The position numbers were made by a program, and so were the translations under genes. From a virus: DNA of 64,000 nucleotides. The stretch lies in IMG/VR virus record IMGVR_UViG_3300045988_125079, positions 32,001 through 96,000 of that record. One strand, 5' to 3'. The notes beneath the pieces are model-generated. The model worked only from the letters and a program-made list of their open reading frames with translations, ran no database searches and had not been told where the DNA came from. Position 1 is the stretch's first letter, and every line of letters starts with the position of its first letter. Positions 21,586-59,075 of the stretch are shown piece by piece.

Positions 21586-21849
21586 TTACAATAACGAGTG
21601 ACAAGTTAGCCGCTTAGAATTCTCAAACATATCATCAGACCACAGCCAATTCATAGTATCTTCTTTAAGCTGATATCGGTCTTCTCTATATCCACCAATT
21701 GTCACAATTTTCCCGCAGAATTTTTTCATGTCTGAAACAAATCCAACTTTAATATCAGGGCATGGCCCAGATCGCATGCTATATATTTTCAGTTGTTCTA
21801 AATTCTGTTTTACACGCACCCTATCCCCAGGTTTGTAGCGATATTCCAT
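21586..21849 (-). CDS. small beta-barrel-like protein with CxSLL-COOH tail (LTCHSLL)
   Basis: MEYRYKPGDRVRV...WLWSDDMF...LTCHSLL. Start trimmed to the ATG aligned with paralogs. Confidence 0.7.
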   Translation of the reverse strand: MEYRYKPGDRVRVKQNLEQLKIYSMRSGPCPDIKVGFVSDMKKFCGKIVTIGGYREDRYQLKEDTMNWLWSDDMFENSKRLTCHSLL

Positions 21850-22031: not shown

Positions 22032-22298
22032 TTATAATAATGATTTGCAAGATAACAGATTTGCTAAGCCTAAAAACATCTCATCTGTCCATAGGATATT
22101 GTTTTGAGCTTCTTCTATGACATATCGATTTAAAACATACCCCATGACCGTCACAGTTTTCCCCTCAAAAGGTTTTCTTGCTTTAAAAGATCTTTTTACG
22201 ACAACTCCAAAATCTTGGGATAACATCTTATAATTATGACCTTCTTCGAAGCAATCTATCACGCGAACATGGTCTCCGGGTTTATATTGATATCCCAT
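22032..22298 (-). CDS. small beta-barrel-like protein with CxSLL-COOH tail (LSCKSLL)
   Basis: MGYQYKPGDHVRV...ILWTDEMF...LSCKSLL. AAAGGAGAG upstream. Confidence 0.7.
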   Translation of the reverse strand: MGYQYKPGDHVRVIDCFEEGHNYKMLSQDFGVVVKRSFKARKPFEGKTVTVMGYVLNRYVIEEAQNNILWTDEMFLGLANLLSCKSLL

Positions 22299-22308
22299 AA
22301 TCTCTCCT

Positions 22309-22575
22309 TTACAGCAGTGACCGACACGTAAAAGGATTAGCCAGACCGACAAACATATCATCAGACCAAATAGTGTCTTTATTTGACTCTTCGATCATGT
22401 ATCCGCCCAGTCTATATCCGGAAATCGTTACAACTTTCCCAGCAAGACGTTTTCTTGTCGGCAACGACACTCCGATTGTCAGAATGCTTTTACCAGAAGA
22501 CATATAATGGTTTTTCCCTGGTTCAAATTTATCTATCACGCGAACTCTATCCCCAAGCTTATATTTGTAATCCAA
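22309..22575 (-). CDS. small beta-barrel-like protein with CxSLL-COOH tail (FTCRSLL)
   Basis: (TTG)DYKYKLGDRVRV...TIWSDDMF...FTCRSLL. Confidence 0.65.
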   Translation of the reverse strand: MDYKYKLGDRVRVIDKFEPGKNHYMSSGKSILTIGVSLPTRKRLAGKVVTISGYRLGGYMIEESNKDTIWSDDMFVGLANPFTCRSLL

Positions 22576-24943: not shown

Positions 24944-25210
24944 TCATAATAATGACTTGCATCTAAACTGATGAGTTATTTTTTCAAACATTTCATCGCA
25001 CCAGAGCCAATTACACTCTTTTATTTTATACGATCCAAAAGATGAAATATGGTCAATATGAACTAATTTCCCACGCATTGCCATCATCTCTTCAATAACA
25101 TAATCGCTTTCCTGTTCAGCATATGGCCCAGATTTCATACAATAAAGATGACCCATACTTAAATCTTTACGGACACGAACTGTATCTCCAGGCTTATATA
25201 GATAATCCAT
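24944..25210 (-). CDS. small beta-barrel-like protein with CxSLL-COOH tail (FRCKSLL)
   Basis: MDYLYKPGDTVRV...WLWCDEMF...FRCKSLL. GAGGAG upstream. Confidence 0.7.
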   Translation of the reverse strand: MDYLYKPGDTVRVRKDLSMGHLYCMKSGPYAEQESDYVIEEMMAMRGKLVHIDHISSFGSYKIKECNWLWCDEMFEKITHQFRCKSLL

Positions 25211-25221
25211 ATTTTCACTCC

Positions 25222-25482
25222 TCACAAGAGAGACTTACATACAATTCGACCCTCCGGTTCAAACATTTCATCTGTCCAATGCCAATTAATTTCGTTTAAG
25301 AGATATTGACCGCATGAAAATCCCTTGATATGGACAAACTGACCACGGAATTTCATCATATCGTCATTGGTGCTATTTGAACCATACTTGTAATCAGGGC
25401 CAGATTTCATACGGTACGATTGTTTGGTACTCAAATCGGCTCGAACCCGAACTCTCTGTCCAACTTTATATTTGTAATCCAT
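25222..25482 (-). CDS. small beta-barrel-like protein with CxSLL-COOH tail (IVCKSLL)
   Basis: MDYKYKVGQRVRV...WHWTDEMF...IVCKSLL. Confidence 0.7.
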   Translation of the reverse strand: MDYKYKVGQRVRVRADLSTKQSYRMKSGPDYKYGSNSTNDDMMKFRGQFVHIKGFSCGQYLLNEINWHWTDEMFEPEGRIVCKSLL

Positions 25483-25490
25483 ATTTCACC

Positions 25491-25763
25491 TCAAAGAAGA
25501 GACTTGCATGTAAGTGGCGTTAACGGTTCAAACATTTCATCGACGAAATAATTGCACTTACCATCTTCGATGATCTTGTACTTTCCATTTGCTTTATGAG
25601 AAATATGAACTATCTTTCCTGCCCAATTTGTTCTAATGCTGTATGTAGCGTAAGTGCTTGCATATCCTGGACCAGACTGCATTTGATATACATGTCCACC
25701 TTCAAGATGCTGCTTTACTTTAACAGCCTGTCCATTCCTGTATTTATATTTACTTTTCGACAT
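25491..25763 (-). CDS. small beta-barrel-like protein with CxSLL-COOH tail (LTCKSLL)
   Basis: MSKSKYKYRNGQAVKV...YFVDEMF...LTCKSLL. Confidence 0.7.
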   Translation of the reverse strand: MSKSKYKYRNGQAVKVKQHLEGGHVYQMQSGPGYASTYATYSIRTNWAGKIVHISHKANGKYKIIEDGKCNYFVDEMFEPLTPLTCKSLL

Positions 25764-26713: not shown

Positions 26714-26968
26714 TTACAGCAAACTTCGACACGAAAACGGTGCAGCACCTTCAAGCATTCCGTCCGACCAGAGATAGTTTCCATCATCTATATCGAGAAT
26801 ATAAAATCCACTTTTGTATCCTACGATTTTAGTAGTCATCCCTTCATAACTCGACATATGTAAACCAAGTCCGCAGTAATTCCCAGGACACGGTCCAGAT
26901 ACCATTGGAAGATTTTTTACCGGAGATTCTATTTTGACTTTTTGTCCAATTTTATATTTGTAATTCAT
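26714..26968 (-). CDS. small beta-barrel-like protein with CxSLL-COOH tail (FSCRSLL)
   Basis: MNYKYKIGQKVKI...YLWSDGML...FSCRSLL. Start trimmed to the ATG aligned with paralogs. Confidence 0.7.
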   Translation of the reverse strand: MNYKYKIGQKVKIESPVKNLPMVSGPCPGNYCGLGLHMSSYEGMTTKIVGYKSGFYILDIDDGNYLWSDGMLEGAAPFSCRSLL

Positions 26969-27034
26969 ACTATACCTTTCTTTCACACTCTCTTCTAATT
27001 GGTTGGAGGCCAGAGAGGAGTTCAAAGCGAGAGG

Positions 27035-27282
27035 ATTTAATTTGATTGGCGAAGCGATAAATTAAATACGAACGATTTGAATCCGCGCGTCCGCCGAAGG
27101 ATCAAGGGCGACTCCAGCTTCGCTGGGTCGCCTGCGATCCGCAGGTCGGACCTGGCTGAATGCCAATGCGGGTGGAAGATCCCCGATGCGCTCCTCCCGG
27201 AGGGCGAGCGAGGGGATCGACATGCCTTACCATTATCTCAACAGTTGGAATCTCCAGCTGCCTAAATTTCATTTAGTATTCA
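27035..27282 (+). ncRNA. GC-rich structured element, copy A (unclassified family)
   Basis: Nested perfect helices: ATTTAATTT/AAATTAAAT, GGCGAC/GTCGCC, CCTGCG/CGCAGG, GATCCCC/GGGGATC. The 3' module has hairpin CAGTTGG-AATCT-CCAGCTG, hairpin CTAAAT-TTC-ATTTAG, then TATTCA. The G-U pair forms only in plus sense. Strand and RNA-versus-DNA nature are uncertain. Confidence 0.4.
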
Positions 27283-27299
27283 AGAGAGATCAAACAGTT

Positions 27300-27662
27300 T
27301 TACTTTTCAACAATAGAATCCGAATCATCTATTTCTTCTGACTCTTCATCGAGAGCGTCATCTAGTTCCAATAAATACTGATTCAAGGCGTCTCGGCCAG
27401 CCTCAAGCATTGCTCGATGGATTTCAGGTTCTGCATCCTTTAAAAGATCCCCACAAAGTGCAAGATCCTCAGCTTCAAACCCCGTAGATTCCATATCCTT
27501 GATGGCATCCGCGACATCTGAAGGGGCCCAAAATACCATAGCACGATGTTCGTCTTCATCGAGGACTTCAACATCGTCATTTACCACTGCTCTCACATAA
27601 TCAGCGACATTTTCAAGCAGCTCAGGTGGCACAGAACCGTCACGACACATAATTTCAATCAT
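27300..27662 (-). CDS. highly acidic small protein (120 aa; DNA-mimic/anti-defence candidate)
   Basis: Asp/Glu-rich throughout (for example LDDALDEESEEIDDSDS). Start at MIEIMCRDG with GGAGGA upstream. Immediately downstream of the RT. Confidence 0.6.
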   Translation of the reverse strand: MIEIMCRDGSVPPELLENVADYVRAVVNDDVEVLDEDEHRAMVFWAPSDVADAIKDMESTGFEAEDLALCGDLLKDAEPEIHRAMLEAGRDALNQYLLELDDALDEESEEIDDSDSIVEK

Positions 27663-27675
27663 AAATCCTCCTTTG

Positions 27676-28908
27676 TTATGCGGCATCTTTTGGACGAAGA
27701 TCGTCTTTAATCATAGCCATCACATCAACATGGTATTTGTTGTTGGCTTTTGAAATCAACGCTTTGATTTTGTCTTTTTCTACCATTTTATAATAGCTGA
27801 TAAGACCATTAAGCTCCTGAACGTCTTCAATTGTCCAAGGAGCATTTTCCTTTTTACAGCGGATATAGTTGGACATCATAATCTTGAATGTCTTGATGTT
27901 ACGCCATCCAACCGTGATTTCATTGTTCTGATTCCACATCAAGCCGAGCACCCAGTTTTTACTCGAATGACGATTGCCGTAATGAGTTTTTTCTTCATTC
28001 AGAGTAAATGGAGCATGGATATACGCCAGAATATTTTTGATTACATCCTGCATCTCCATATAGTCAAAACTCAAATAACAACTAATCGTGATATCATCCG
28101 CATATCTTGTATAAGTAAAATCACGAGTAATGCCATCTTTCATTTTGAAACCATGACGAATTTTTCGACTCAGCAAATGATCAAATGGAATCATCATGAC
28201 ATTCGTAAGCCAAGGACTCAAGGGGCTTCCCTGCGGTAATCCATTGCGAAGAAAAGCAATCTTTAATGCATCACTCAACGCTTCATGGCCGCCGAATGGA
28301 TCTTGCATGATAAGAGCGAACGGATAAATCACACTCAACATTCCCATAACAAACTCTGGATTAGAGCTGGGGAAAAATCCGTGAAAGTCGAATTTTACAG
28401 ACCAGTTATTTTCATAAATAACCTGCTCTTTTTCTCCTGTTGTCGGGTTCGTTTTAGTCCGCACATGCCCTTCCTGATGTTTTTTCACAGCAGTCAAAGT
28501 AGACCGATGCGGAACATAAGCATGTGCCGCAGTATGATAGTCTGCAAGCATAAAGCTTTTTAACAACGTTTGCAGTTCGTTCAATGCGTCACTAAGGATT
28601 TTGTCTGGAGCATCAATTGGCCGCATGCCACCTGTTTTTTTGGGAATTTCATAGTGAGTATAGTGAACAGACATATCCGGTTCAGATTCGAGCTGTTCGT
28701 ATTTCTTATTAAACGCTTCGAGTTCTCGAATCATTCGGTTAATATCTGTCATGGCTCTCAAACGTGGGGTAAGTTCGTCTCTACAAACAGTCACAGTCGA
28801 AGTAACATCTTCTCGATATTTCAATTTCTCAGACTCGATAATGCCTGCAAGAATCTCATCGATTGTGATCTGTCTCGTTTTAGGGGCTGCTTTGTATGTA
28901 ATATACAT
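27676..28908 (-). CDS. reverse transcriptase (retron/Abi/DRT-like, stand-alone RT domain)
   Basis: RT motifs KKTGGMRPIDAP (1), HAYVPHRS (2a), KFDFHGFFPS (3), GLPQGSPLSPWLTN (4), YTRYADDITIS (5) and KNWVLGL (7). No endonuclease, maturase or Cas domains. Confidence 0.85.
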   Translation of the reverse strand: MYITYKAAPKTRQITIDEILAGIIESEKLKYREDVTSTVTVCRDELTPRLRAMTDINRMIRELEAFNKKYEQLESEPDMSVHYTHYEIPKKTGGMRPIDAPDKILSDALNELQTLLKSFMLADYHTAAHAYVPHRSTLTAVKKHQEGHVRTKTNPTTGEKEQVIYENNWSVKFDFHGFFPSSNPEFVMGMLSVIYPFALIMQDPFGGHEALSDALKIAFLRNGLPQGSPLSPWLTNVMMIPFDHLLSRKIRHGFKMKDGITRDFTYTRYADDITISCYLSFDYMEMQDVIKNILAYIHAPFTLNEEKTHYGNRHSSKNWVLGLMWNQNNEITVGWRNIKTFKIMMSNYIRCKKENAPWTIEDVQELNGLISYYKMVEKDKIKALISKANNKYHVDVMAMIKDDLRPKDAA

Positions 28909-28929
28909 ATTATCTTCCTCTTATCGTGA

Positions 28930-29165
28930 TCTAAATAGGTCTCAGCTCATTCCAAGCCTGATCGCAGTGCGGATCTTGACTATGTTGTTGAGCGATACAT
29001 CGTAAAATTTCACCCTGCAGTGACGCTGATGACGTCGACTACCTGGAGGATGGCCGTTGCCTCCGCGGTACCTCCATGGCCATCGGCGGCTCGCGGGGCA
29101 CCTCCCTCGTTCTACCTTTGCGAACCAATCGGATCTCCGGTTGGACTGTGGTTAACAGTAATTCA
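28930..29165 (+). ncRNA. GC-rich structured element, copy B (same family as A and C)
   Basis: Helices GATGGCC/GGCCATC and CCGCG/CGCGG. The 3' module is CTACCTTTGCGAA, hairpin CCAATCGG-ATCT-CCGGTTGG, hairpin CTGT-GGTTA-ACAG, then TAATTCA. Confidence 0.4.
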
Positions 29166-29185
29166 TCACGATTTTATTTCAAATT

Positions 29186-29860
29186 TTAACTTGCAATAAC
29201 ACTATGCTGATAAGGATCAACAACAATCATCTTGTTGACTTTATTCTTCCCCATAGCAAATCCGATGAAATTCGTAACAGCCTGACAGCAGATTTCACGA
29301 ACTGTCGGAGCAAGTCCCTGAACAACGCCACATGCAGAAACGGGCGTACTTGCCGTGGCTTCTTCGTGAGTGAAATCCATAGAATTTTTGAGATTTTCCT
29401 TCATGGATTCATCCATCCAATCAGCCGCCCAACACTGAGCGTCGTAAAGACCGGTTCGGATATCAAACACGCCCTTAATATTGGGATTATATTTGTTCTT
29501 CTCCATGAAATCTTTTCGAATTTCAATGTTGTCAACAGCCAGGAAAACATATCCCTGAACCTGTTCACCATGCCAACCATTGGGTTTGATGATGATATCG
29601 TCCTTCGCGTCAGGATTAATCATGCAGATGAGATTTGCAACAGCTTCAACCTTCGGATGACCAATATCCTGCTGGAAAAACATTTGGTTCACGATATTCT
29701 TCGATTCAACGATGTCCATATCCCAAAGCGTAAAATTAGTGAGGCCGTATCGAGCCAACAGCTCAGCCACAGTCGAACCAACAGAACCACAGCCAATGAT
29801 ATGCACCTGGCCACGAATTTCTTTAGGATTGAAAATCATCTCAATCTTGCTCAGATTCAT
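29186..29860 (-). CDS. ThiF/MoeB/E1-like adenylyltransferase (short, no obvious catalytic-Cys domain)
   Basis: HIIGCGSVGSTVAELLARYGL is a Rossmann GxGxxG motif at the N-terminus. 224 aa. Confidence 0.75.
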   Translation of the reverse strand: MNLSKIEMIFNPKEIRGQVHIIGCGSVGSTVAELLARYGLTNFTLWDMDIVESKNIVNQMFFQQDIGHPKVEAVANLICMINPDAKDDIIIKPNGWHGEQVQGYVFLAVDNIEIRKDFMEKNKYNPNIKGVFDIRTGLYDAQCWAADWMDESMKENLKNSMDFTHEEATASTPVSACGVVQGLAPTVREICCQAVTNFIGFAMGKNKVNKMIVVDPYQHSVIAS

Positions 29861-29877: not shown

Positions 29878-30840
29878 TTAATCCTGAAATGCATCAATGT
29901 CGTTATAATACGGCCAGCAACTCGAATTACCGACTGCTTCCAATTCTTCAGGATGCTCTTCGTAATACTTGGCGAGATTGCTTTTTGCCGGCACTTTCGG
30001 AGCGGCGCTGCCAGTTACCGTCTTCTTCGACTCTTCTTTTTTTGTCCCGACCAACGGGGTTTTCGGGTACGTAACGGTGGAGCCGTATACCTTACTTGCA
30101 CCCGCGCCTCCTGCAGAATATCCTCCATTGCTTCCAATTGCGTTTGCGCTGTAATTGGTATTTCCGGTCCAATTCCCTGTCGCGCCATATACAGGTGTTG
30201 TGGCAATTTTGTTCTTAACAATCTGGTCTGCGTTTTCGAGAAATCGAGAAGAATCAAAATCACCAACGGTGACATTCACATCCTCTCCTTCATAGATAAC
30301 GTTTGCCTTCAGATCAATAACCCGAACATTATACTCACGCCGCTTGTTCCAAATCATAAAGATTTCATAGCTATCCATCGGCATAGTATCAACGAAACGC
30401 CACTGGTCTTCCATATCTGTAGCACTCGGGGTGACTCCCATATTGACATGAGAATGACCTTGAAAATGCAGACTGTTAAAATCCTCATCGGGCAGCTTCG
30501 CGTACCACATAGAATACTCTCCCCAATCGGTATTCACGGTCGCTCCCGTGACAGTCTGGGGATAAAGCAGAATCTTAGTAATCTGAAAGTGAGTATCATC
30601 GATTCGATTCACCGTGCCACACCACGCGACTTCGGACGAGAAGTGGTTAATCAGAGCGAACATCTGATGATATGCTTCGTAGGTGAAATTCACTGTGATT
30701 GCATTCTTCTGCTTTACTGCAGGAAATTCTGCGCTATATGTAAACTTATCACTGCGGATATAATTCATAGCCATCAGCTGTTCATAAAGCTTCTGTGCTG
30801 CGTTCTTTGCGTACTCCTGTGAAATCTTAATCGGCTTCAT
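29878..30840 (-). CDS. JAB/MPN (JAMM) metallopeptidase with Gly/Ser-rich C-terminal extension
   Basis: HFQGHSHVNMGVTPSATD matches HxH-x7-S-xx-D. A low-complexity tail follows. Confidence 0.75.
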   Translation of the reverse strand: MKPIKISQEYAKNAAQKLYEQLMAMNYIRSDKFTYSAEFPAVKQKNAITVNFTYEAYHQMFALINHFSSEVAWCGTVNRIDDTHFQITKILLYPQTVTGATVNTDWGEYSMWYAKLPDEDFNSLHFQGHSHVNMGVTPSATDMEDQWRFVDTMPMDSYEIFMIWNKRREYNVRVIDLKANVIYEGEDVNVTVGDFDSSRFLENADQIVKNKIATTPVYGATGNWTGNTNYSANAIGSNGGYSAGGAGASKVYGSTVTYPKTPLVGTKKEESKKTVTGSAAPKVPAKSNLAKYYEEHPEELEAVGNSSCWPYYNDIDAFQD

Positions 30841-33502: not shown

Positions 33503-33730
33503 TTATAATAGCGACTTGCAACAAATCTGATCGGAACATGGTTCCCATAGCCAATTAGGACACCATGAAATATGTATTTCACCATGTGAAAATGGATCGA
33601 TCATATCAACAATAATCTGTCCTTCTTCGTCAACAGCCACAATTTTCCCTCGCTTATGATAGTTGGTATCAGTGGCCGAGCATTCATTTCCAATTCTTAC
33701 CATCTGTCCGATACGAAATTTATATTCCAT
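33503..33730 (-). CDS. small protein with CxSLL-COOH tail (ICCKSLL)
   Basis: MEYKFRIGQMVRI...WLWEPCSDQICCKSLL. Confidence 0.7.
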   Translation of the reverse strand: MEYKFRIGQMVRIGNECSATDTNYHKRGKIVAVDEEGQIIVDMIDPFSHGEIHISWCPNWLWEPCSDQICCKSLL

Positions 33731-33739
33731 ATTTCCCCC

Positions 33740-33985
33740 TCATAGCAAAGACTTACATTCAAACGAAGGGCAGCGATCAAAATAGTCTGGTGATTTTCGC
33801 CATCGATACCCTTTCTTTAGCGGCGGATAACCAACAAGTGACACTTCATCTTCTAAAAGTTCCACAGTGAGTGTTCCATTAGGTGCAATGTCGACTACTT
33901 TGCCAAGTTTTCTTTGTGCCTCATCGCACCACATGTCATCAATATCAGTCGTTCTGACAAGATCCCCAATTTTAAATTTAGTCAT
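33740..33985 (-). CDS. small protein with CxSLL-COOH tail (FECKSLL)
   Basis: MTKFKIGDLVRT...DRCPSFECKSLL. Confidence 0.7.
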   Translation of the reverse strand: MTKFKIGDLVRTTDIDDMWCDEAQRKLGKVVDIAPNGTLTVELLEDEVSLVGYPPLKKGYRWRKSPDYFDRCPSFECKSLL

Positions 33986-33997
33986 CAGCTAATCCTC

Positions 33998-34234
33998 TCA
34001 CAACAACGATTTACAAACAAATGGCTTTGTTTTTACCTTCACCCAATTATCAGCAGTGAGCCACCATTCATAACCAGCCCCTACGTCTTCTCCGCTGCCG
34101 ATATCGGGCATTGCCTCAAGCATTTCAACAACGATATAGTCAACGTCTACTGCCTTCACGATTCCTTTCTTCCCGACATTCCCAGGAGCCCACATATGGG
34201 GAGCCGAAGCGACAATATCACCAACCTTAACCAT
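33998..34234 (-). CDS. small protein with CxSLL-COOH tail (FVCKSLL)
   Basis: MVKVGDIVAS...VKTKPFVCKSLL. Confidence 0.7.
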   Translation of the reverse strand: MVKVGDIVASAPHMWAPGNVGKKGIVKAVDVDYIVVEMLEAMPDIGSGEDVGAGYEWWLTADNWVKVKTKPFVCKSLL

Positions 34235-37948: not shown

Positions 37949-38353
37949 ACAGAGAGGAGGATTTAACCATGTACACCATCAGCGAGGAGCAAGCGGCTTA
38001 CCAATGCGCAATACTCGGTCGCGTCAGTAGATACAACACATAAGCGATTAGGTCTCTTATGGTGTCCATCCTCAAAGGCTGCCCTTTTCAAATTCACTCT
38101 CCGATACTCTGGGCACCGAGCATCTATGCCACTTTCGCAGGCAGTGCCAAATTCGCCTACTCATAATAGAGCCATGCACATCCACTGTGGCGGGTAGCTA
38201 CTCCCGTTGCATCATGGTTATTATTTTCGGTCAGAGCGTTATGGGTGTGTCAGAGGGGGAGTATGATCACCCACGGTGGAATTGCGCCACCCCAGCGACC
38301 GCGCACTACACTACGCTGCCGCATCGAACCTAGCTTTGCGGCTTGCACCGCTA

Positions 38354-38737
38354 TGGACCCGGTGGGATTCGAACCCACGTCCAAAACTAATACTCGATTA
38401 CAATTTTCTTACGCAATAGCCAGCATTTAGAATTTTGAAAAGGAATTCATGCCGCCGACACAGCAACCTTAGGGACGTAACGGTTGTTACATCACTCCAC
38501 CACTCGGTTTTGACGTCCGAGAACGCTAGTGTTTCTTACCGTTTACATCGGGTTCCGGGATTTATTCTTTGAACCGTCAAGCATTTACCTGCCTATCAGG
38601 ATGCTGTTTTGGGCACGGCATCAAGCCGCGCAACGATAACTGTTGTTGTTAGCGTTTATTTGTTTTTTGCCTCGTAAGGTGATGGCCGACCTGCGAATTG
38701 TAATTTTTCTTAGCCCTGTCGAAAACCTTTCGGGCCC
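38354..38737 (-). ncRNA. ~384-nt structured RNA closed by a tRNA-like acceptor stem and T arm
   Basis: 5' GGGCCCG pairs with 3' CGGGTCC, giving a G3-U70 pair. T arm GTGGG-TTCGAAT-CCCAC. A long-range 9-bp helix joins ATTACAATT and AATTGTAAT. Internal helices include GGACGT/ACGTCC and GTAAC/GTTAC. The 5' end follows the AUAU leader. Confidence 0.35.
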
Positions 38738-39071: not shown

Positions 39072-40364
39072 TTAGGAAACCGCATCCAACGCTTTCGCAG
39101 CTTCCTTGAAGATTTTCATGTTCTTCTCCGATTCTGCGAAGATATCGGTTTTGGACTTTGGTGGACGGTTATGAGCACGAACATATGCTTTTGTTAAGCG
39201 ATTCATCTTTGCAACGCCCACAATGTCATAAATCTTCTGATAGGTTACCCAGTATCCAACTGTCTTGTCACCACGTTTTTCAGCGATTGGTTTAATAATC
39301 GGAAGCGTGATGCTCGCTTTATAGTATTTCTTTTTCTTAGATTCAGCAACAATCGAAACCGGCTCTTCGGATTCAACCACGCGACATTCAGCTTCAACGA
39401 CAGGTTCGGGTTCAGCAGCACGTCTCTTCGGAATTGCATCAGCCGGAATGATAGGAGGCGTCTTTGTAAGCACCCCCTTAATTCCCTTCTTGACTTCGGC
39501 ATTGTGCTTTTCGTTTTCACAGCGGTCTTTCATAATCGACATGAAGATCGATTTATACATCTCACTTGCCTCGATTACATCCAAACCGCTGATGTTTTTG
39601 AGACTTCCCTTATAATCAGTTTGTCTCACGAATTCTTTACGTGCATCCTCAAAGAACCAACCATAGTTGCGCCCCAGATAATCGTACCCCTGATGCAATA
39701 CGCAATTCAGAGTCAAACCTGTCAGGCTGACGATTTTGTTAGCCAGATCGTAAACTTCAGTCCGCCATTCACTACGCCCTTTCGGTGTCTGCCTCGGAGT
39801 GTAGGACCCAGGCTGTGTGCTTTGAAGTTTTCTTTCGAGCTGTTTGCAAACGAATAAGACATTATCAATGGCCTGTCTGTCCTGTTTGCGGGCAGTCTCG
39901 AATGCATCAAGCTTGGCCATCATCTCGTTTTGAATTTTCTGAACCGCAAGGACTTCTTGGTTCATCAACTCGAACCTTTGCTGACCCGTTGTTTTGACTG
40001 TGTAAGAGCCAGTCTTTCGAATCGCAGGAAGCACTTCACTGGTAACCCAGCGTTTAAAACGCTTGGCGGAATCAAGCTTACTTCCGAAAATCAAAGCATA
40101 CAGACCGGACTCGTTAATGACCGTCATAAGCCTGTTTTGGCCTGACCCGTTAAAACGACGGGTCAGCCTATCTTCCGTATCAACGTGCTTTCTTAACGCC
40201 TGGTCTGTATCTCCATACCCAAGCGCAGCTGCCACGTCTTTCCCTACAAACCAAGGATCAGAGTCGATCATAATAGAACGAATACTGCCAAACTCCTCGC
40301 TCGCAAACGCCCTGAGTACAGGCGGTTCACACTGTTTAACACTCTCTACCTTTTCTGCATTCAT
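39072..40364 (-). CDS. BRO-N domain protein (antirepressor-like)
   Basis: N-terminal FGSIRSIMIDSDPWFVGKDVAAALGYGDTDQALRKHV is typical of Bro-N. 430 aa. Confidence 0.7.
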   Translation of the reverse strand: MNAEKVESVKQCEPPVLRAFASEEFGSIRSIMIDSDPWFVGKDVAAALGYGDTDQALRKHVDTEDRLTRRFNGSGQNRLMTVINESGLYALIFGSKLDSAKRFKRWVTSEVLPAIRKTGSYTVKTTGQQRFELMNQEVLAVQKIQNEMMAKLDAFETARKQDRQAIDNVLFVCKQLERKLQSTQPGSYTPRQTPKGRSEWRTEVYDLANKIVSLTGLTLNCVLHQGYDYLGRNYGWFFEDARKEFVRQTDYKGSLKNISGLDVIEASEMYKSIFMSIMKDRCENEKHNAEVKKGIKGVLTKTPPIIPADAIPKRRAAEPEPVVEAECRVVESEEPVSIVAESKKKKYYKASITLPIIKPIAEKRGDKTVGYWVTYQKIYDIVGVAKMNRLTKAYVRAHNRPPKSKTDIFAESEKNMKIFKEAAKALDAVS

Positions 40365-40402: not shown

Positions 40403-40550
40403 TCTACGAGAACAGAATACCACGTTGTCCTCTACATGTCAACTGTCATTTCGAACAGTAGATCATAATTGTTTTTGTGTGTTTTATGTTATTTGTTCCA
40501 TTTTTATAAAAAGTTTTCAACATCATCCTTCCATGTATTTTTGTTTCATC

Positions 40551-40841
40551 GAGATCTGATGAGTGCTGAGCGGTCTTCAGGCTGCCTGAGGCTGCAGGAG
40601 GTTAACGATGATTGGATGTCTTACCTGCGGACTGCCGGTATTTGGATTATTTCCTTGGCCAGGAAAATGCTGCTAGGTCGGACATTGGTACGTTTGGCCT
40701 GTCTAACAGGTGCCCTGAAGAAGTGAGTACCTGCGTGGGTCGACGTCGTCGCCTGGAAGGCGACATCTCGGTGCGGGCCTACCTCGTCCTACCTTTGCGA
40801 AACAGTTGGATATCCAGCTGCACTACTTTCGTAGTTATTCA
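40551..40841 (+). ncRNA. GC-rich structured element, copy C (same family as A and B)
   Basis: Helices GTCGCC-tggaa-GGCGAC and CCTGC/GCGGG, the latter with a G-U pair in plus sense only. The 3' module is CTACCTTTGCGAA, hairpin CAGTTGG-ATAT-CCAGCTG, hairpin ACTAC-TTTC-GTAGT, then TATTCA. Confidence 0.4.
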
Positions 40842-41061
40842 TCTCGATGTCCTTGATCAGCTTGCGTTTATTGTCTATGCGGAGCTATCAAAATCGACCA
40901 TTAAAATCACCTCTTTTCAAGTATGCCTTTTTGTTCCAATAATTATGCAGGCAAAACAGGGACAACGTGCACCAGTAGAGTAACTTCATTACTGAACCCC
41001 GTTATGTTATTTTACCCCTTGTTTATCTTAGACTTTTCAGGCTAAAAATTGATTCTGGCTT

Positions 41062-42066: not shown

Positions 42067-42321
42067 TTACAGAAGCGACTTGCAATAAAGCGGCTCTTTA
42101 TGACGTAGAAATTCGTATTGTTCACTATATAAACAATCTTCAATATATCCGTCTTTAAATTTCATATGTGGACACCGATCGTTATAATCCTCATCCAAAT
42201 CATATTTGTCCCAGCCAAGAAATTCACATTCTTGTTCATTATAATAATCAAGATTTCTACAATGAAGTCTGAATATTGAACCTGGAATCCAAATTTCTTC
42301 TTGCGCCGTTACTTTCGTCAT
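42067..42321 (-). CDS. small protein with CxSLL-COOH tail (LYCKSLL)
   Basis: MTKVTAQEEIW...RHKEPLYCKSLL. The body is unlike the YKxGD family. Confidence 0.65.
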   Translation of the reverse strand: MTKVTAQEEIWIPGSIFRLHCRNLDYYNEQECEFLGWDKYDLDEDYNDRCPHMKFKDGYIEDCLYSEQYEFLRHKEPLYCKSLL

Positions 42322-46462: not shown

Positions 46463-46742
46463 GTAATTTGAACCTCCTTTCTGATGTGTTCGTTCGCTTA
46501 CACGACCTTTAAGATACTTACGAAATTCAATTTTGAATCCGTGCACTGACTCGCGATCGAAAAACGTTTTCACCCTCGGGCGGAACGCTTGCTCTTACTG
46601 CTACGCTTTTTCAACGTGCTTTTAAAACTGGGCTTGGAACCAGCACGGTTCTGCAGAACTCGTGGCCGCATTACACTCCGGCACTATTGCACCGGAGCGT
46701 CCTCTGCGTTATTCATCGCAACAATCGAAATAAACGTCATAA

Positions 46743-56790: not shown

Positions 56791-57264
56791 ATGTATAAAA
56801 TATTCGCTCCACGCGGCGGTGGCCGCACCTATCAAATATGTAAATACGCGATTGAAAACGACTGCGACATTATTGTGCCCGCTCTGAATTCTATCCAACA
56901 CATTATAACGATCATAATGCAAATCTGCTATGATTCTAATGGTGAATATGAATATATTGATGACAATAACAATTTGCGTGATATCAAAATTAAAACACCA
57001 AACGACACGATTGTGATCCACGTTTTTGACGCTGATAGTTTCCGACATGCACAATTTGGCCCCGCCAGAAGAAAACCCGTGGTGATCGACGATATTGATG
57101 AATGTATGAAGCGTATTATAAATTCCGACTTGATTGAAGCTATTTCTATAGCTACATATGACCCATCTGATGTCGCACTTCATCCTAAAATCACAGATGC
57201 AGATGATCCAGCTATAGGAAGACCGGCACTGCAACCGCAACTGACCTGTAGGAGTTTACTATGA
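56791..57264 (+). CDS. protein with P-loop-like N-terminus and CxSLL-COOH tail (LTCRSLL)
   Basis: APRGGGRT...VVIDDID...LTCRSLL. AGGAGG upstream. Confidence 0.65.
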   Translation: MYKIFAPRGGGRTYQICKYAIENDCDIIVPALNSIQHIITIIMQICYDSNGEYEYIDDNNNLRDIKIKTPNDTIVIHVFDADSFRHAQFGPARRKPVVIDDIDECMKRIINSDLIEAISIATYDPSDVALHPKITDADDPAIGRPALQPQLTCRSLL

Positions 57265-57605
57265 CAACAGATATTTTTGGAACGAGTAATTTTAAAAAGA
57301 ACGAAAAGGAAATACTAGACCTGGCTCGACATAAATTATATGCAGAACTTAGTGAAGAGCGTGGACGTAAAGTAGATTCAGTAACGATTTATGTTGATAT
57401 GGATCGCAGATATATACATTATGACTGGGATTTAACTTTTACTCTTAATCCGAAATATTTTATCAAAGTCGGAATTATATCTGGGTTACGGATGGAAATT
57501 ATTGAAGGCGACGCTGCAGAACTAATTTATAAGCGATATCTTGAATTGGTTAGCAAGTATACAATGCAATCTAAAAAATCGTTTGTTTGTAGGAGTTTGC
57601 TATGA
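57261..57605 (+). CDS. protein with CxSLL-COOH tail (FVCRSLL)
   Basis: The ATG sits inside the previous gene's tail codons (cTATGA), with AGGAG 7 nt upstream. Confidence 0.65.
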   Translation: MTTDIFGTSNFKKNEKEILDLARHKLYAELSEERGRKVDSVTIYVDMDRRYIHYDWDLTFTLNPKYFIKVGIISGLRMEIIEGDAAELIYKRYLELVSKYTMQSKKSFVCRSLL

Positions 57606-58021
57606 ATTACACTGTAACCGCCAGAGTCGCAATGCTGACTTCTGTAAATTATAATGCCAAAAATGGAATATACGTCCCATTAAACGATAATAACATGGTA
57701 TGGGTCATGCCATTCAAATCGTACCGTGATTTTAGAGCATGGTATTTAAGAGCAGACGATAGTTCAAAAATATTTCATCAGATATGGTTTGGACCCGGAT
57801 ATACCTATGATTCCATGAGTGATGTAGCGACACGGCTTGCAAAAGAATTTGATCAGCTTAACAATATGGATTATTACCGACTTGTTAATAACGATAGTAT
57901 TTTAGATTTGATACATCCTATCAAGCTTGACTATACGTGGACTTTCGATCATGTCGTAAAAATCACAGCGCCATGGTATGAACGAAATAAAAAGAATCTC
58001 GTATGCTACAGCCTATTGTAA
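57602..58021 (+). CDS. protein with CxSLL-COOH tail (LVCYSLL)
   Basis: Same ATGA-type coupling as 57261. Confidence 0.65.
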   Translation: MNYTVTARVAMLTSVNYNAKNGIYVPLNDNNMVWVMPFKSYRDFRAWYLRADDSSKIFHQIWFGPGYTYDSMSDVATRLAKEFDQLNNMDYYRLVNNDSILDLIHPIKLDYTWTFDHVVKITAPWYERNKKNLVCYSLL

Positions 58022-58047
58022 ACGTAGTGGGGAAGGAACTTCGTAGA

Positions 58048-58320
58048 ATGACACGAGAAGAAACTATAAAGTTAGTTGCTGAGAGCATATTTAGCGATCC
58101 AAGTATTAAGGCAACTCAACGGCAAGATGATCTTATTAAAGTAATAACATGTATGGCTGTGAATGGTGTTGACCATGTTTTGTATAAAGATAAAAAATAT
58201 AGACTTGATTGCGACGCAGGTTGGTTATTGTCTGACTTTATTATAAACGATTTTTATACATATCCGAAACCAATATACATAAATAAACAGCAGCCGCTAA
58301 TTTGCAGGAGTTTATTATGA
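58048..58320 (+). CDS. protein with CxSLL-COOH tail (LICRSLL)
   Basis: ORF track trimmed to MTREETIK, which has GGGGAAGGAA upstream. Confidence 0.6.
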   Translation: MTREETIKLVAESIFSDPSIKATQRQDDLIKVITCMAVNGVDHVLYKDKKYRLDCDAGWLLSDFIINDFYTYPKPIYINKQQPLICRSLL

Positions 58321-59075
58321 ATAGAATTGATTTTCAAAATGGATCGTAGATTCAAACGATAGAAACCAATCACGACGAATCTCAGGATGAAGTAATTAAT
58401 GTTTGGTCTGCAGATGGCAAACCAGTTAGAATCTGTCGTGAAAGCAATCCGAGCATTCAAGTGGTAAAACAATGTGCTGCAGATTATATAAAAAGATGGG
58501 CTGAAGTAAAACATTCAATTTCGACAATGCCTGAAGTATCAGACAAGTTTGACTATGAGTTTTATAACTACTCCCCTTCTCCGACTATTAATACGATTGA
58601 TTTATTTAATCGAGAATATGAAATGATAGTAAATGCAGAACGACAATCACATAAAGAAGAGGACGATATGAGAATTTTATTTGTAAGTCCAGAAAAATAC
58701 GATGCCGTATGTTCTTGGTATGATAATTTAGACACTGTACAAAAACACCGTAAAGTAATCGTAATATGCAAATCGCCGGACGAATTCCGTGAAAAGTTTG
58801 ACTATAGTAAAATGAATGCACAGTGTACTATGTTCTACTTTGATGAATATCTTGGATTGGCTAAGTCGTTTGAATATTGCAAATTATTTACTAAGTTGTA
58901 TGGAGAAGCTGATGTTAGATACATCTGTGGAAATAAAATGCGACAGATAAATATAGATGATTTAATGTGCCGCAATACATTTGATTGGTTTAAAGAGTTT
59001 TCTGTCGTGCCAGAATGCTTGGAAGATCTTATTCGAAATAGTAAGAGAGCCTTCGTTTGTAAGAGTCTATTATGA
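58317..59075 (+). CDS. protein with CxSLL-COOH tail (FVCKSLL) and in-frame TAG at 58347-58349
   Basis: The coupled ATG at 58317 (ttATGa) gives MNRIDFQNGS-TAG-IQTIETNHDES..., in frame with ORF 58461-59075. Confidence 0.55.

What the first reader, a model, noticed from the sequence alone, without database searches (positions are those of the whole stretch)
27035..29165. Related GC-rich structured elements flank the RT operon, with covariation and a conserved G-U pair
Elements A (27035-27282) and B (28930-29165) are visibly more GC-rich than their surroundings. Both are built from nested perfect helices.

Together with a third copy (C) they share a 3' module of four parts:
- (CTACCTTTGCGAA)
- hairpin 1
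- hairpin 2
- TA(A)TTCA

Hairpin 1 is CAGTTGG/CCAGCTG in A and C but CCAATCGG/CCGGTTGG in B. These are compensatory changes. All three copies keep a T-G pair as the fourth pair from the loop. That pair is a wobble only when the plus strand is read; it would be an A-C mismatch on the minus strand.

Hairpin 2 keeps its position but not its sequence: CTAAAT/ATTTAG in A, CTGT/ACAG in B and ACTAC/GTAGT in C.

The functional strand therefore appears antisense to all neighbouring genes. Two readings are possible: an independent plus-strand RNA, or the plus-sense cDNA of a minus-sense transcript made by the adjacent RT.
Basis: seen in the sequence. Interest (0 to 1): 0.7.

Follow-up and report, generated by a model that had tools for sequence, protein, structure and literature searches.

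The report
Three retron-like template RNAs in phage
The GC-rich elements are three related copies of a retron-type non-coding RNA gene read on the same strand as the neighbouring reverse transcriptase, so this gut phage probably makes three different small single-stranded DNAs from one enzyme, an arrangement not described for retrons.

Summary
Three GC-rich elements exist, with true limits A 26988-27290, B 28922-29173 and C 40547-40849. They share a two-hairpin module, and no Rfam family matches.

The strand call does not hold. On the minus strand, the strand of the reverse transcriptase (RT), each element reads:
- a terminal stem (a1), then a G;
- two short hairpins and a linker;
- a 150-230 nt C/A-rich core;
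- a second G, then the stem partner (a2).

This is the layout of a retron msr-msd RNA. B ends 14 nt before the RT start codon. The RT matches retron RTs best.

More than 100 related phage and Clostridia contigs keep the same layout on the RT strand:
- about 25 different covarying a1/a2 stems;
- covarying hairpins with G-U pairs;
- GNRA and UUCG loops on that strand.

Other clades have a bulge there.

The plus strand folds better only because of base composition. The difference vanishes against shuffled controls.

A, B and C are orthologous across phage clades, and relatives carry two to four copies per RT. I read this as a phage-borne retron with several templates. No cDNA, branch linkage or effector has been shown.

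The parts
28922..29173 (-). Element B, a retron-type msr-msd-like ncRNA lying directly upstream of the RT. a1 is 29165-29172, the candidate priming G is 29164, the opposing G is 28931 and a2 is 28923-28930. The linker UUCGCAAAGGUAG is 29112-29124. The hypervariable core is about 28965-29108.
   Evidence: Sequence. Stem-plus-G grammar hit. Covariance-model hit at 69.3 bits, E 2e-12. The same element ends 20-35 nt before the RT start in nearly all related loci. The core differs at 43 of 100 positions from a phage with an identical RT.
26988..27290 (-). Element A, a second ncRNA paralogue. It lies downstream of the small acidic ORF and upstream of an 84-aa ORF. a1 is 27282-27288, the candidate priming G is 27281, the opposing G is 26995 and a2 is 26988-26994. 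The hairpins are 27262-27276 and 27242-27260. The core holds three long stem-loops.
   Evidence: Covariance-model hit at 58.9 bits. Fold z is -5.0/-2.7. Orthologous copies sit at the same position in loci L001-L047 and L078, with covarying a1/a2 stems CTCTCTT, CTCTTTT, TCACTTT, TCATTTT and TCACGAA.
40547..40849 (-). Element C, a third ncRNA paralogue. It lies 11.6 kb from the RT and about 180 nt upstream of a Bro-N gene. a1 is 40841-40849, the candidate priming G is 40840, the opposing G is 40556 and a2 is 40547-40555. The hairpins are 40822-40835 (GAAA loop on the minus strand) and 40803-40820. The linker is 40789-40801.
   Evidence: Covariance-model hit at 66.1 bits. Orthologues with the same a1 (CATCGAGAT) lie upstream of the homologous Bro-N gene in phages whose RT is 63% identical.
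27676..28908 (-). Reverse transcriptase of the retron lineage, 410 aa, active site YADD. It is the only RT in the window.
   Evidence: Pfam RVT_1 at 3e-16. PADLOC retron RT_II-A at 1e-38 and XIII at 1e-36. NCBIfam retron St85 at 1.6e-43, below the family cutoff. The best PDB profile hits are retron RTs: Ec83 at 3e-29, then Ec78, Ec67, Ec86. tblastn finds no second RT.
27300..27662 (-). Small acidic protein of about 120 aa (MIEIMCRDG...), encoded between the RT and element A. It is an accessory or effector candidate of unknown function.
   Evidence: It is conserved at this position in loci L001-L047 and L150. It has no family hit. The structure model is unusable, with pLDDT 47.
26714..26968 (-). 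84-aa ORF that starts about 20 nt after element A. It belongs to a family of small proteins ending in C-x-S-L-L.
   Evidence: It has homologues directly after the A-type element in related loci.
39072..40364 (-). Bro-N domain protein of 430 aa, downstream of element C.
   Evidence: Pfam Bro-N at 2e-25. Its position after the C-type element is syntenic in locus L121.

Best explanation
A, B and C are three paralogous genes for a retron-type msr-msd non-coding RNA. They are transcribed on the minus strand, the strand of the RT and of all neighbouring genes.

**Proposed layout and mechanism**
- Each RNA closes on itself through terminal inverted repeats (a1/a2), bracketed by two opposing G residues.
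- The 5' part holds two short hairpins. The second hairpin carries a conserved mismatch or bulge and is followed by a conserved linker. This is the msr-like handle that the RT recognises.
- The long GC-rich, C/A-rich core is the msd-like template.
- The single retron-lineage RT (27676-28908) would bind this handle in cis on B and in trans on A and C.
- It would prime from the 2'-OH of the G after a1 (29164, 27281, 40840) and copy the core starting next to a2.
- The result would be three different G+T-rich single-stranded DNAs, whose sequence is that of the window's plus strand.

**Shown**
- The anatomy.
- Conservation of that anatomy on the RT strand.
- Covariation.
- The RT lineage.
- The multi-copy arrangement.

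**Inferred**
- Transcription.
- cDNA synthesis and the branch linkage.
- Use of A and C in trans.
- Any biological role, whether exclusion of other phages, counter-defence, or control of the downstream genes.
For: **RT lineage.** The best matches are retron RTs. The invariant H of region X and the invariant G of region Y are present.

**Anatomy on the RT strand.** A simple grammar was used: a 7-nt stem, a G, 150-450 nt, then [T/C/A]-A-G and the stem's complement. It gave 135 hits on the RT strand and 10 on the opposite strand across 80 phage loci. Nearly every locus has one hit ending 20-35 nt before the RT start. The same holds in Clostridia genome bins whose RT is only 37-44% identical.

**Retron hallmarks.** Terminal inverted repeats, two opposing G residues, one to three msr hairpins and a long msd hairpin are the features given in PMC7736814. 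About 25 different a1/a2 sequences all keep both G residues.

**Hairpin covariation on the RT strand.**
- Hairpin 1 (17 representative 22-nt sequences): 100% paired, 6 of 8 pairs changed on both sides, 0 of 500 shuffles reach the covariation score, and slid controls give 23-45% paired.
- Whole module: 98% paired.
- GNRA/UNCG loops: 9 of 20 on the RT strand against 2 of 20 on the other.

**One RT, several templates.**
- There is only one RT in 64 kb.
- A, B and C types each keep their own a1 across phage clades.
- Three copies per genome recur in the 63%-identity clade.
- Relatives carry one upstream copy plus one to three downstream copies.
- The upper stem and loop of hairpin 1 are alike among paralogues of one genome and differ between genomes. 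This fits recognition by one RT.

**Non-coding.** Close relatives differ by indels that are not multiples of three.
Against: - No expression, cDNA or branch data exist.
- The RT scores below every curated retron family cutoff.
- The RT lacks the N-A of NAXXH and the V-T of VTG.
- The cores of B and C are not more structured than shuffled sequence, unlike a classic long msd hairpin.
- The elements are 223-341 nt long. From general knowledge, that is longer than most described retron ncRNAs.
- No effector was recognised.
- The setting is a large phage genome, not a bacterial defence island.
- In the window's own clade, the 5' module folds slightly better on the plus strand because of the C·A mismatch.
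- The grammar that picked the elements requires stem complementarity and both G residues. Those features are therefore partly selected for. The positions, the strand and the adjoining module are not.
Confidence: 0.68

Rival explanations
1. This is a template-RNA system like UG27. A phage RT, helped by accessory proteins, copies a central hairpin of each of several sequence-diverse ncRNA units into short unbranched cDNA hairpins. It would not use the retron 2'-5' branch.
For: A September 2026 preprint (10.64898/2026.09.22.753630) reports that gut-phage UG27 RTs carry variable arrays of structurally conserved, sequence-diverse ncRNA units that template 50-100 nt cDNA hairpins. Here too there is a gut phage, several diverse units per RT, a small conserved ORF next to the RT, and tandem units in relatives.
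Against: - The active site is YADD, not the YSDD reported for UG27.
- RT profiles favour retron RTs by 20-30 orders of magnitude over the UG-class RTs Drt2 and Drt3a.
- Units are 223-341 nt, against 135-167 nt for UG27.
- The UG27 motif AUC-N7-UANAG occurs in 1 of 123 elements.
- No large accessory ORF was recognised.
- No UG27 profile was available, so RT membership itself was not tested directly.
Confidence: 0.13
2. The elements are independent structured RNAs transcribed from the plus strand, antisense to the genes.
For: - Whole-element minimum free energy is lower on the plus strand in 96 of 102 elements.
- The plus-strand T-G pair in hairpin 1 of A, B and C is real.
- The plus strand of the cores is G+T-rich.
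Against: - The folding advantage disappears with dinucleotide shuffles: mean z is -2.0 on the RT strand and -1.7 on the opposite strand, and plus is better in only 9 of 24.
- In homologues the hairpins carry G-U pairs and GNRA/UUCG loops on the minus strand.
- Orientation relative to the RT is fixed in all clades.
- Promoter-like and terminator-like sites do not exceed chance on either strand.
Confidence: 0.05
3. The elements are cis-acting 5' leaders that control translation or stability of the gene that follows each of them (RT, the 84-aa protein, Bro-N). They might act with or without reverse transcription, as in the hybrid RNA of type VI retrons.
For: - Each copy lies upstream of a gene on the same strand, and that pairing is conserved: B with the RT, A with the small C-x-S-L-L protein, C with Bro-N.
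- a2 is 14-20 nt from the start codon for B and A.
- A type VI retron transcript that joins a template to a repressed effector ORF has been described (10.1101/2025.10.22.683967).
Against: - The ribosome-binding sites lie outside the a1/a2 stem.
- C is about 180 nt from its gene.
- In relatives, two or three units stand in tandem with no ORF between them.
- This rival is compatible with the main explanation and does not exclude it.
Confidence: 0.1
4. The elements act at the DNA level. They could be miniature inverted-repeat mobile elements, recombination or replication sites, DGR template and variable repeats, or group II intron remnants.
For: - Terminal inverted repeats are present.
- GC content is foreign to the surrounding genome.
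- There are several copies.
- Helices predicted on both strands are 97% Watson-Crick.
Against: - The terminal repeats covary instead of being conserved.
- Copies sit at syntenic positions across phage clades.
- The cores have no repeat elsewhere in the window.
- Variation shows no adenine bias: 33-41% of columns vary for each base.
- No Rfam hit was found, including intron families.
Confidence: 0.04

Closest known systems
Bacterial retrons (msr-msd ncRNA plus retron RT; classification of Mestre et al. 2020, PMC7736814)
   Same: - The RT belongs to the retron lineage.
- The ncRNA lies immediately upstream of the RT on the same strand.
- a1/a2 terminal inverted repeats are flanked by two opposing G residues.
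- Two short 5' hairpins are followed by a longer template region.
   Different: - There are three paralogous ncRNAs for one RT: one upstream, one downstream and one 11.6 kb away. Relatives carry up to four.
- The elements are 223-341 nt, with a branched or weakly structured C/A-rich core in place of one long hairpin.
- The RT carries an N-terminal extension and an insertion.
- The RT has only the H of NAXXH and only the G of VTG.
- No recognisable effector is present.
- It is encoded in 70-150 kb gut phage genomes of Clostridia.
- It scores below the cutoffs of all curated retron families.
UG27 reverse transcriptase systems of gut phages (Mestre et al. 2022, PMC9226505; bioRxiv 10.64898/2026.09.22.753630)
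   Same: - It is phage-encoded in the human gut.
- Several structurally conserved but sequence-diverse ncRNA units accompany one RT.
- A small accessory ORF lies nearby.
- The expected product is a set of different short structured cDNAs.
   Different: - The RT is of the retron lineage with YADD, not UG class 2 with YSDD.
- Units are about twice as long.
- Units are closed by a1/a2 with opposing G residues.
- The UG27 boundary motifs are absent.
- Units are dispersed at fixed syntenic sites, not arranged in one array.
Type VI retron hybrid RNA (Retron-Vpa2; bioRxiv 10.1101/2025.10.22.683967)
   Same: A reverse-transcription template sits on the same transcript as, and just upstream of, a protein-coding sequence.
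   Different: - Nothing here shows translational repression.
- The downstream genes are different (RT, small C-x-S-L-L protein, Bro-N).
- No HTH partner was found.

Membership tests
Retron | RT belongs to the retron/retron-like lineage | tested here: met
   - PADLOC: the best 25 hits are all retron RT models, led by RT_II-A at 1e-38 and XIII at 1e-36.
- NCBIfam: retron St85 at 1.6e-43, against group II at 5e-21 and Drt2 at 2e-10. All are below the family cutoffs.
- PDB: the top 12 hits are retron RTs.
Retron | Region X NAXXH motif and region Y VTG triplet (H and G are the most conserved residues; PMC7736814) | tested here: inconclusive
   In the alignment to the Ec83 RT, NAKIH corresponds to AVKKH, with H144 invariant. 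VTG corresponds to (I/x)LG, with G322 invariant. The N-A and V-T residues are not kept.
Retron | ncRNA gene contiguous with the RT and on the same strand | tested here: met
   B ends 14 nt before the RT ATG. The same holds in about 100 related loci.
Retron | a1/a2 terminal inverted repeats that pair, flanked by two opposing G residues (branching G after a1) | tested here: met
   Stems are 7-9 bp, with about 25 different sequences. A G follows a1 and a G precedes a2 in all of them. One natural variant, L061, has T in place of the first G. The selection grammar required the inner 7 bp and the G residues, but not the position or the strand.
Retron | msr with one to three short hairpins | tested here: met
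   There are two hairpins. Covariation gives 98-100% pairing, with 6-7 pairs changed on both sides, and the shuffled and slid controls are far lower.
Retron | msd folds into a long stable stem-loop | tested here: inconclusive
   A-type cores reach z of -4 to -7. B-type and C-type cores reach z of 0 to -3, with little consensus structure.
Retron | Produces msDNA joined to the RNA by a 2'-5' bond | not testable with these tools
   This needs ssDNA sequencing and a debranching assay.
Retron | Tripartite system with an effector protein | tested here: inconclusive
   The neighbours have no effector-type domain. The adjacent small acidic protein is conserved but unassigned.
UG27 RT system | UG class 2 RT with YSDD active site | tested here: not met
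   The RT has YADD: Y269 is invariant, A270 is at least 90% conserved, and D271 and D272 are invariant. YSDD is the site given in the preprint. No UG27 profile was available for a direct test.
UG27 RT system | Array of 135-167 nt units with AUC-N7-UANAG and UUYA boundary motifs | tested here: not met
   Units are 223-341 nt. The motif occurs in 1 of 123 elements.
Diversity-generating retroelement | Template repeat and variable repeat that differ at adenines | tested here: not met
   No second copy of any core occurs in the window. Variation is even across the four bases.
Any Rfam family (including msr RF00170, group II intron, HEARO) | Covariance-model match | tested here: not met
   There is no hit at gathering score, and no relevant hit at E up to 10.

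The most novel reading that the evidence does not exclude
This may be a phage-borne retron with several templates. One RT would make three or more distinct msDNAs from dispersed ncRNA genes. Each ncRNA gene is fixed upstream of a particular gene (RT, a small C-x-S-L-L protein, Bro-N). The cDNAs would then act as separate switches or decoys during infection. The template cores would be kept hypervariable, either by diversifying selection or by error-prone cDNA recombining back into the phage genome.
Probability: 0.15. Interest if true: 0.85.

Novelty: new variant of a known kind. Interest (0 to 1): 0.6.

Why it matters
**Departure from known retrons.** Retrons are known as bacterial anti-phage systems with one RT, one ncRNA and one effector. 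Here a retron-lineage RT sits in large gut phages of Clostridia with two to four template RNAs and no recognisable effector. That would extend retrons to a viral, multi-template setting.

**Parallel with UG27.** UG27 phage RTs were very recently reported to carry ncRNA arrays. The present system suggests that multi-product cDNA synthesis by phages arose in more than one RT lineage.

**Practical use.** This is a compact RT that may accept long templates (150-230 nt) of diverse sequence in trans. That property is wanted for retron genome editing.

**What the data provide.** This work supplies the RNA anatomy, the candidate priming residues and more than 100 natural variants with which to design the tests.

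Tried and rejected
- **Rfam.** Gathering and permissive thresholds gave nothing relevant.
- **Promoter and terminator scans.** Counts were at shuffle level on both strands, so they were uninformative.
- **Strand test by consensus folding.** Energies were similar on both strands. Helices common to both strands were 97% Watson-Crick, with 18 G-U against 17 A·C, so the test did not decide.
- **Strand test by raw folding energy.** It favoured plus but proved to be a composition effect.
- **MAFFT alignments** of the joined 5'+3' ends and of all hairpin-1 sequences were out of register and were not used.
- **Covariance model R1.** It aligned the L020-type hairpin 1 wrongly. The G-U count at the closing pair is therefore inflated. 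One search was used in its place.
- **DGR-type adenine mutagenesis** was rejected.
- **UG27 motifs** were absent.
- **A coding function for the cores** was rejected because close relatives differ by frame-breaking indels.
- **Structure prediction of the small acidic protein** failed (pLDDT 47). Only four sequences were allowed in the alignment. No fold search was run.
- **Literature searches** for phage-encoded or multi-ncRNA retrons found no description of this arrangement.
Full report
**1. The observation**

The window averages 42.5% G+C. Three islands stand out, with 120-nt maxima of 0.68 (27044-27268), 0.65 (28977-29175) and 0.61 (40652-40833).

The linker CTACCTTTGCGAA is exact in B at 29112 and in C at 40789, and diverged in A. 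Hairpin 1 is CAGTTGG/CCAGCTG in A and C and CCAATCGG/CCGGTTGG in B. A T-G sits at the fourth pair from the loop in all three copies.

This extends the elements:
- A: CTCTCTT/AAGAGAG, 26988-27290.
- B: ATCGTGAT/ATCACGAT, 28922-29173.
- C: CATCGAGAT/ATCTCGATG, 40547-40849.

A covariance model of the module finds exactly these three sites in the 64 kb. They are its own seeds, at E 2e-12 to 3e-10, and the next hit has E 0.6. Only A folds clearly better than shuffled sequence (z -5.0 on plus, -2.7 on minus). B and C do not. Rfam has no family for them.

**2. Surroundings**

All genes around the elements lie on the minus strand. Reading in the minus direction, the order is:
1. a protein with a JAMM-like motif (29878-30840);
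2. a ThiF/E1-like protein (29186-29860);
3. element B;
4. a 410-aa reverse transcriptase (27676-28908);
5. a small acidic protein of about 120 aa (27300-27662);
6. element A;
7. an 84-aa protein (26714-26968);
8. an integrase-family protein.

Element C lies about 180 nt upstream of a Bro-N protein gene (39072-40364).

The RT is of the retron lineage:
- Its best PADLOC hits are all retron RT models, led by RT_II-A at 1e-38 and XIII at 1e-36.
- NCBIfam gives retron St85 at 1.6e-43, against group II intron at 5e-21 and Drt2 at 2e-10. All are below the curated cutoffs.
- A profile of 27 homologues hits retron RTs first among solved structures: Ec83 at 3e-29, then Ec78, Ec67, Ec86 and Kva2.
- It is the only RT in the window.

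**3. Anatomy on the RT strand**

Read on the minus strand, every element has the same plan:
- a 7-9 nt stem half (a1);
- a G, followed by (A/C/U)AU(A/U);
- a short hairpin of variable sequence;
- a second hairpin with an irregularity two to four pairs below its loop;
- a conserved single-stranded linker;
- a core of 150-230 nt;
- Y-A-G, then the other stem half (a2).

B ends 14 nt before the RT start codon.

This is the plan given for retron msr-msd transcripts in PMC7736814: terminal inverted repeats that pair, two opposing G residues next to that stem, one to three short msr hairpins, then the msd.

**4. Related sequences**

The RT has 1246 relatives at E of 1e-10 or better. More than 540 stretches in IMG/VR encode one. 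The 80 loci fetched come mostly from 70-150 kb human-gut phage contigs. In bacterial genome bins, relatives at 37 to 63% identity come from Clostridia: Oscillospiraceae, Lachnospiraceae, Christensenella and Peptococcaceae. Only one unannotated GenBank phage record carries this RT.

A grammar made only of the stem and the G residues gave 135 hits on the RT strand and 10 on the other strand across the 80 loci. Nearly every locus has one hit ending 20-35 nt before the RT start. Most loci L001-L047 have a second hit after the acidic ORF. The layout persists at 37-44% RT identity, with one upstream copy and one to three downstream copies, some in tandem.

The a1/a2 stem takes about 25 different sequences, and the two G residues stay.

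The three paralogue types are orthologous across clades. Each keeps its own a1: B AATCGTGAT, C CATCGAGAT, A ATCTCT(C/T)TT. C-type copies again precede the Bro-N homologue. Three copies per genome recur in phages whose RT is 63% identical.

Within a genome, the upper stem and loop of the second hairpin are alike among paralogues. They differ between genomes. This is expected if one RT reads all copies.

**5. Which strand**

Four lines of evidence bear on this.

The plus strand folds better in 96 of 102 unique elements, with means of -99 against -87 kcal/mol.
- *Where the energy difference comes from.* Splitting the elements shows that the difference lies in the core. On the RT strand the core is C/A-rich (A 0.26, C 0.31, G 0.23, T 0.20). 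In most clades the 5' module folds as well or better on the RT strand.
- *Shuffle control.* Against dinucleotide shuffles the core shows no strand preference. Mean z is -2.0 on the RT strand and -1.7 on the other, and the other strand is better in only 9 of 24. The advantage is therefore one of composition, not of arrangement.
- *The hairpins.* They point to the RT strand. In 17 representative 22-nt hairpin-1 sequences, all 136 cells pair on that strand. Of these, 23 are G-U and none is A·C. Six of eight pairs change on both sides. No shuffle of 500 reaches the covariation score, and slid controls give 23-45% paired. Among 20 distinct four-base loops of the first hairpin that RNAfold predicts in the 5' module, nine are GNRA or UNCG on the RT strand and two on the other.

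The window clade and the 63%-identity clade have this mismatch. All other clades have a bulged A or C at that place. A mismatch and a bulge are both breaks in the helix, whereas a wobble pair and a bulge are not equivalent. I therefore read the position as a recognition feature.

**6. The core**

The core varies far more than its flanks. Between the window and a phage with an identical RT protein, B's core differs at 43 of 100 positions, against 1-5 per 100 in flanking genes. A's core differs at up to 25 per 100. The differences include indels that are not multiples of three, so the core does not code for protein.

Variation is spread evenly over the four bases and is dominated by transitions, so it is not DGR-like. 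No second copy of a core exists in the window.

A-type cores are strongly structured (z -4 to -7). B-type cores are not, and they show little consensus structure.

**7. Interpretation**

The best-supported reading is a retron-type system with several templates. The minus-strand RNAs are recognised through the shared 5' module. The RT would prime at the G after a1 and copy the core from the a2 side. This would give three G+T-rich single-stranded DNAs that match the plus strand.

It also moves the 'shared 3' module' to the RNA-only 5' part.

Transcription, cDNA synthesis, the branch linkage, use in trans and biological role are all inferred.

**8. Known relatives**

The closest family is the bacterial retron. 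The differences are:
- two to four ncRNAs per RT;
- longer, branched or weakly structured cores;
- partial NAXXH and VTG motifs;
- no recognised effector;
- a phage setting.

The closest concept is the UG27 phage RT. A September 2026 preprint shows that it has arrays of about 150-nt ncRNA units that template short cDNA hairpins. Here the active site is YADD and not YSDD. The profiles favour retrons, the units are about twice as long, and the UG27 boundary motif is absent. I could not score a UG27 profile directly.

Type VI retron hybrid RNAs are a lead for the fixed pairing of each element with a downstream gene.

Two targeted literature searches found no natural retron with several ncRNAs.

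**9. Verdict**

The finding is real and its link to the RT is right, but its strand call is wrong. It is a new variant of a known kind. It is of moderate to high interest to people working on retrons, phage counter-defence or retron editing.

Noticed in passing
21586-21849(-), 22032-22361(-), 22309-22503(-), 24944-25210(-), 25222-25482(-), 25491-25763(-), 26714-26968(-), 33503-33730(-), 33740-33985(-), 33998-34234(-), 42067-42321(-), 56917-57264(+), 57261-57605(+), 57632-58021(+), 58003-58320(+), 58668-59075(+): At least 16 small proteins (64-135 aa) on both strands have diverse bodies, yet all end in C-[K/R/H/Y]-S-L-L-stop. The ORF right after element A is one of them. Related phages have arrays of such proteins. 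In the 42%-identity clade the tail is ..SFD[D/E]L[I/L].. instead.
   Followed up: partly
29186-29860(-) and 29878-30840(-): A ThiF/E1-like protein (Pfam ThiF 3e-20) and a protein with a JAMM-like motif (HSHVNMGVTPSATD) lie directly upstream of element B. The synteny is the same in distant relatives. Together with the many proteins that share a fixed C-terminal tail, this suggests a system that processes or conjugates C-termini. A link to the RT is unknown.
   Followed up: partly
46628-46708(-): Type-P5 twister ribozyme: Rfam RF02684, 45.9 bits against a gathering score of 37.6.
   Followed up: no
38351-38737(-); 12 tRNAs between 23 and 39005(-): The phage encodes a tmRNA (92 bits) and a dozen tRNA genes, all on the minus strand.
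   Followed up: no
26809-26909 (C-terminal half of the 84-aa ORF): This stretch differs at 32-40 of 100 positions from two otherwise near-identical phages (L001, L002). Both phages share the same alternative allele. That looks like cassette exchange by recombination and not point hypermutation.
   Followed up: partly
L061:3650-3665: In one related phage, the G that follows a1 in every other copy is a T (GTTTGTGTT-T-TATAC). This is either a natural priming-site mutant or a sequencing error.
   Followed up: no
L151:2013-2843 and L156:3635-4273: In Clostridia genome bins with a 38-44% identical RT, two or three full ncRNA units stand head to tail right after the RT, with no ORF between them.
   Followed up: partly
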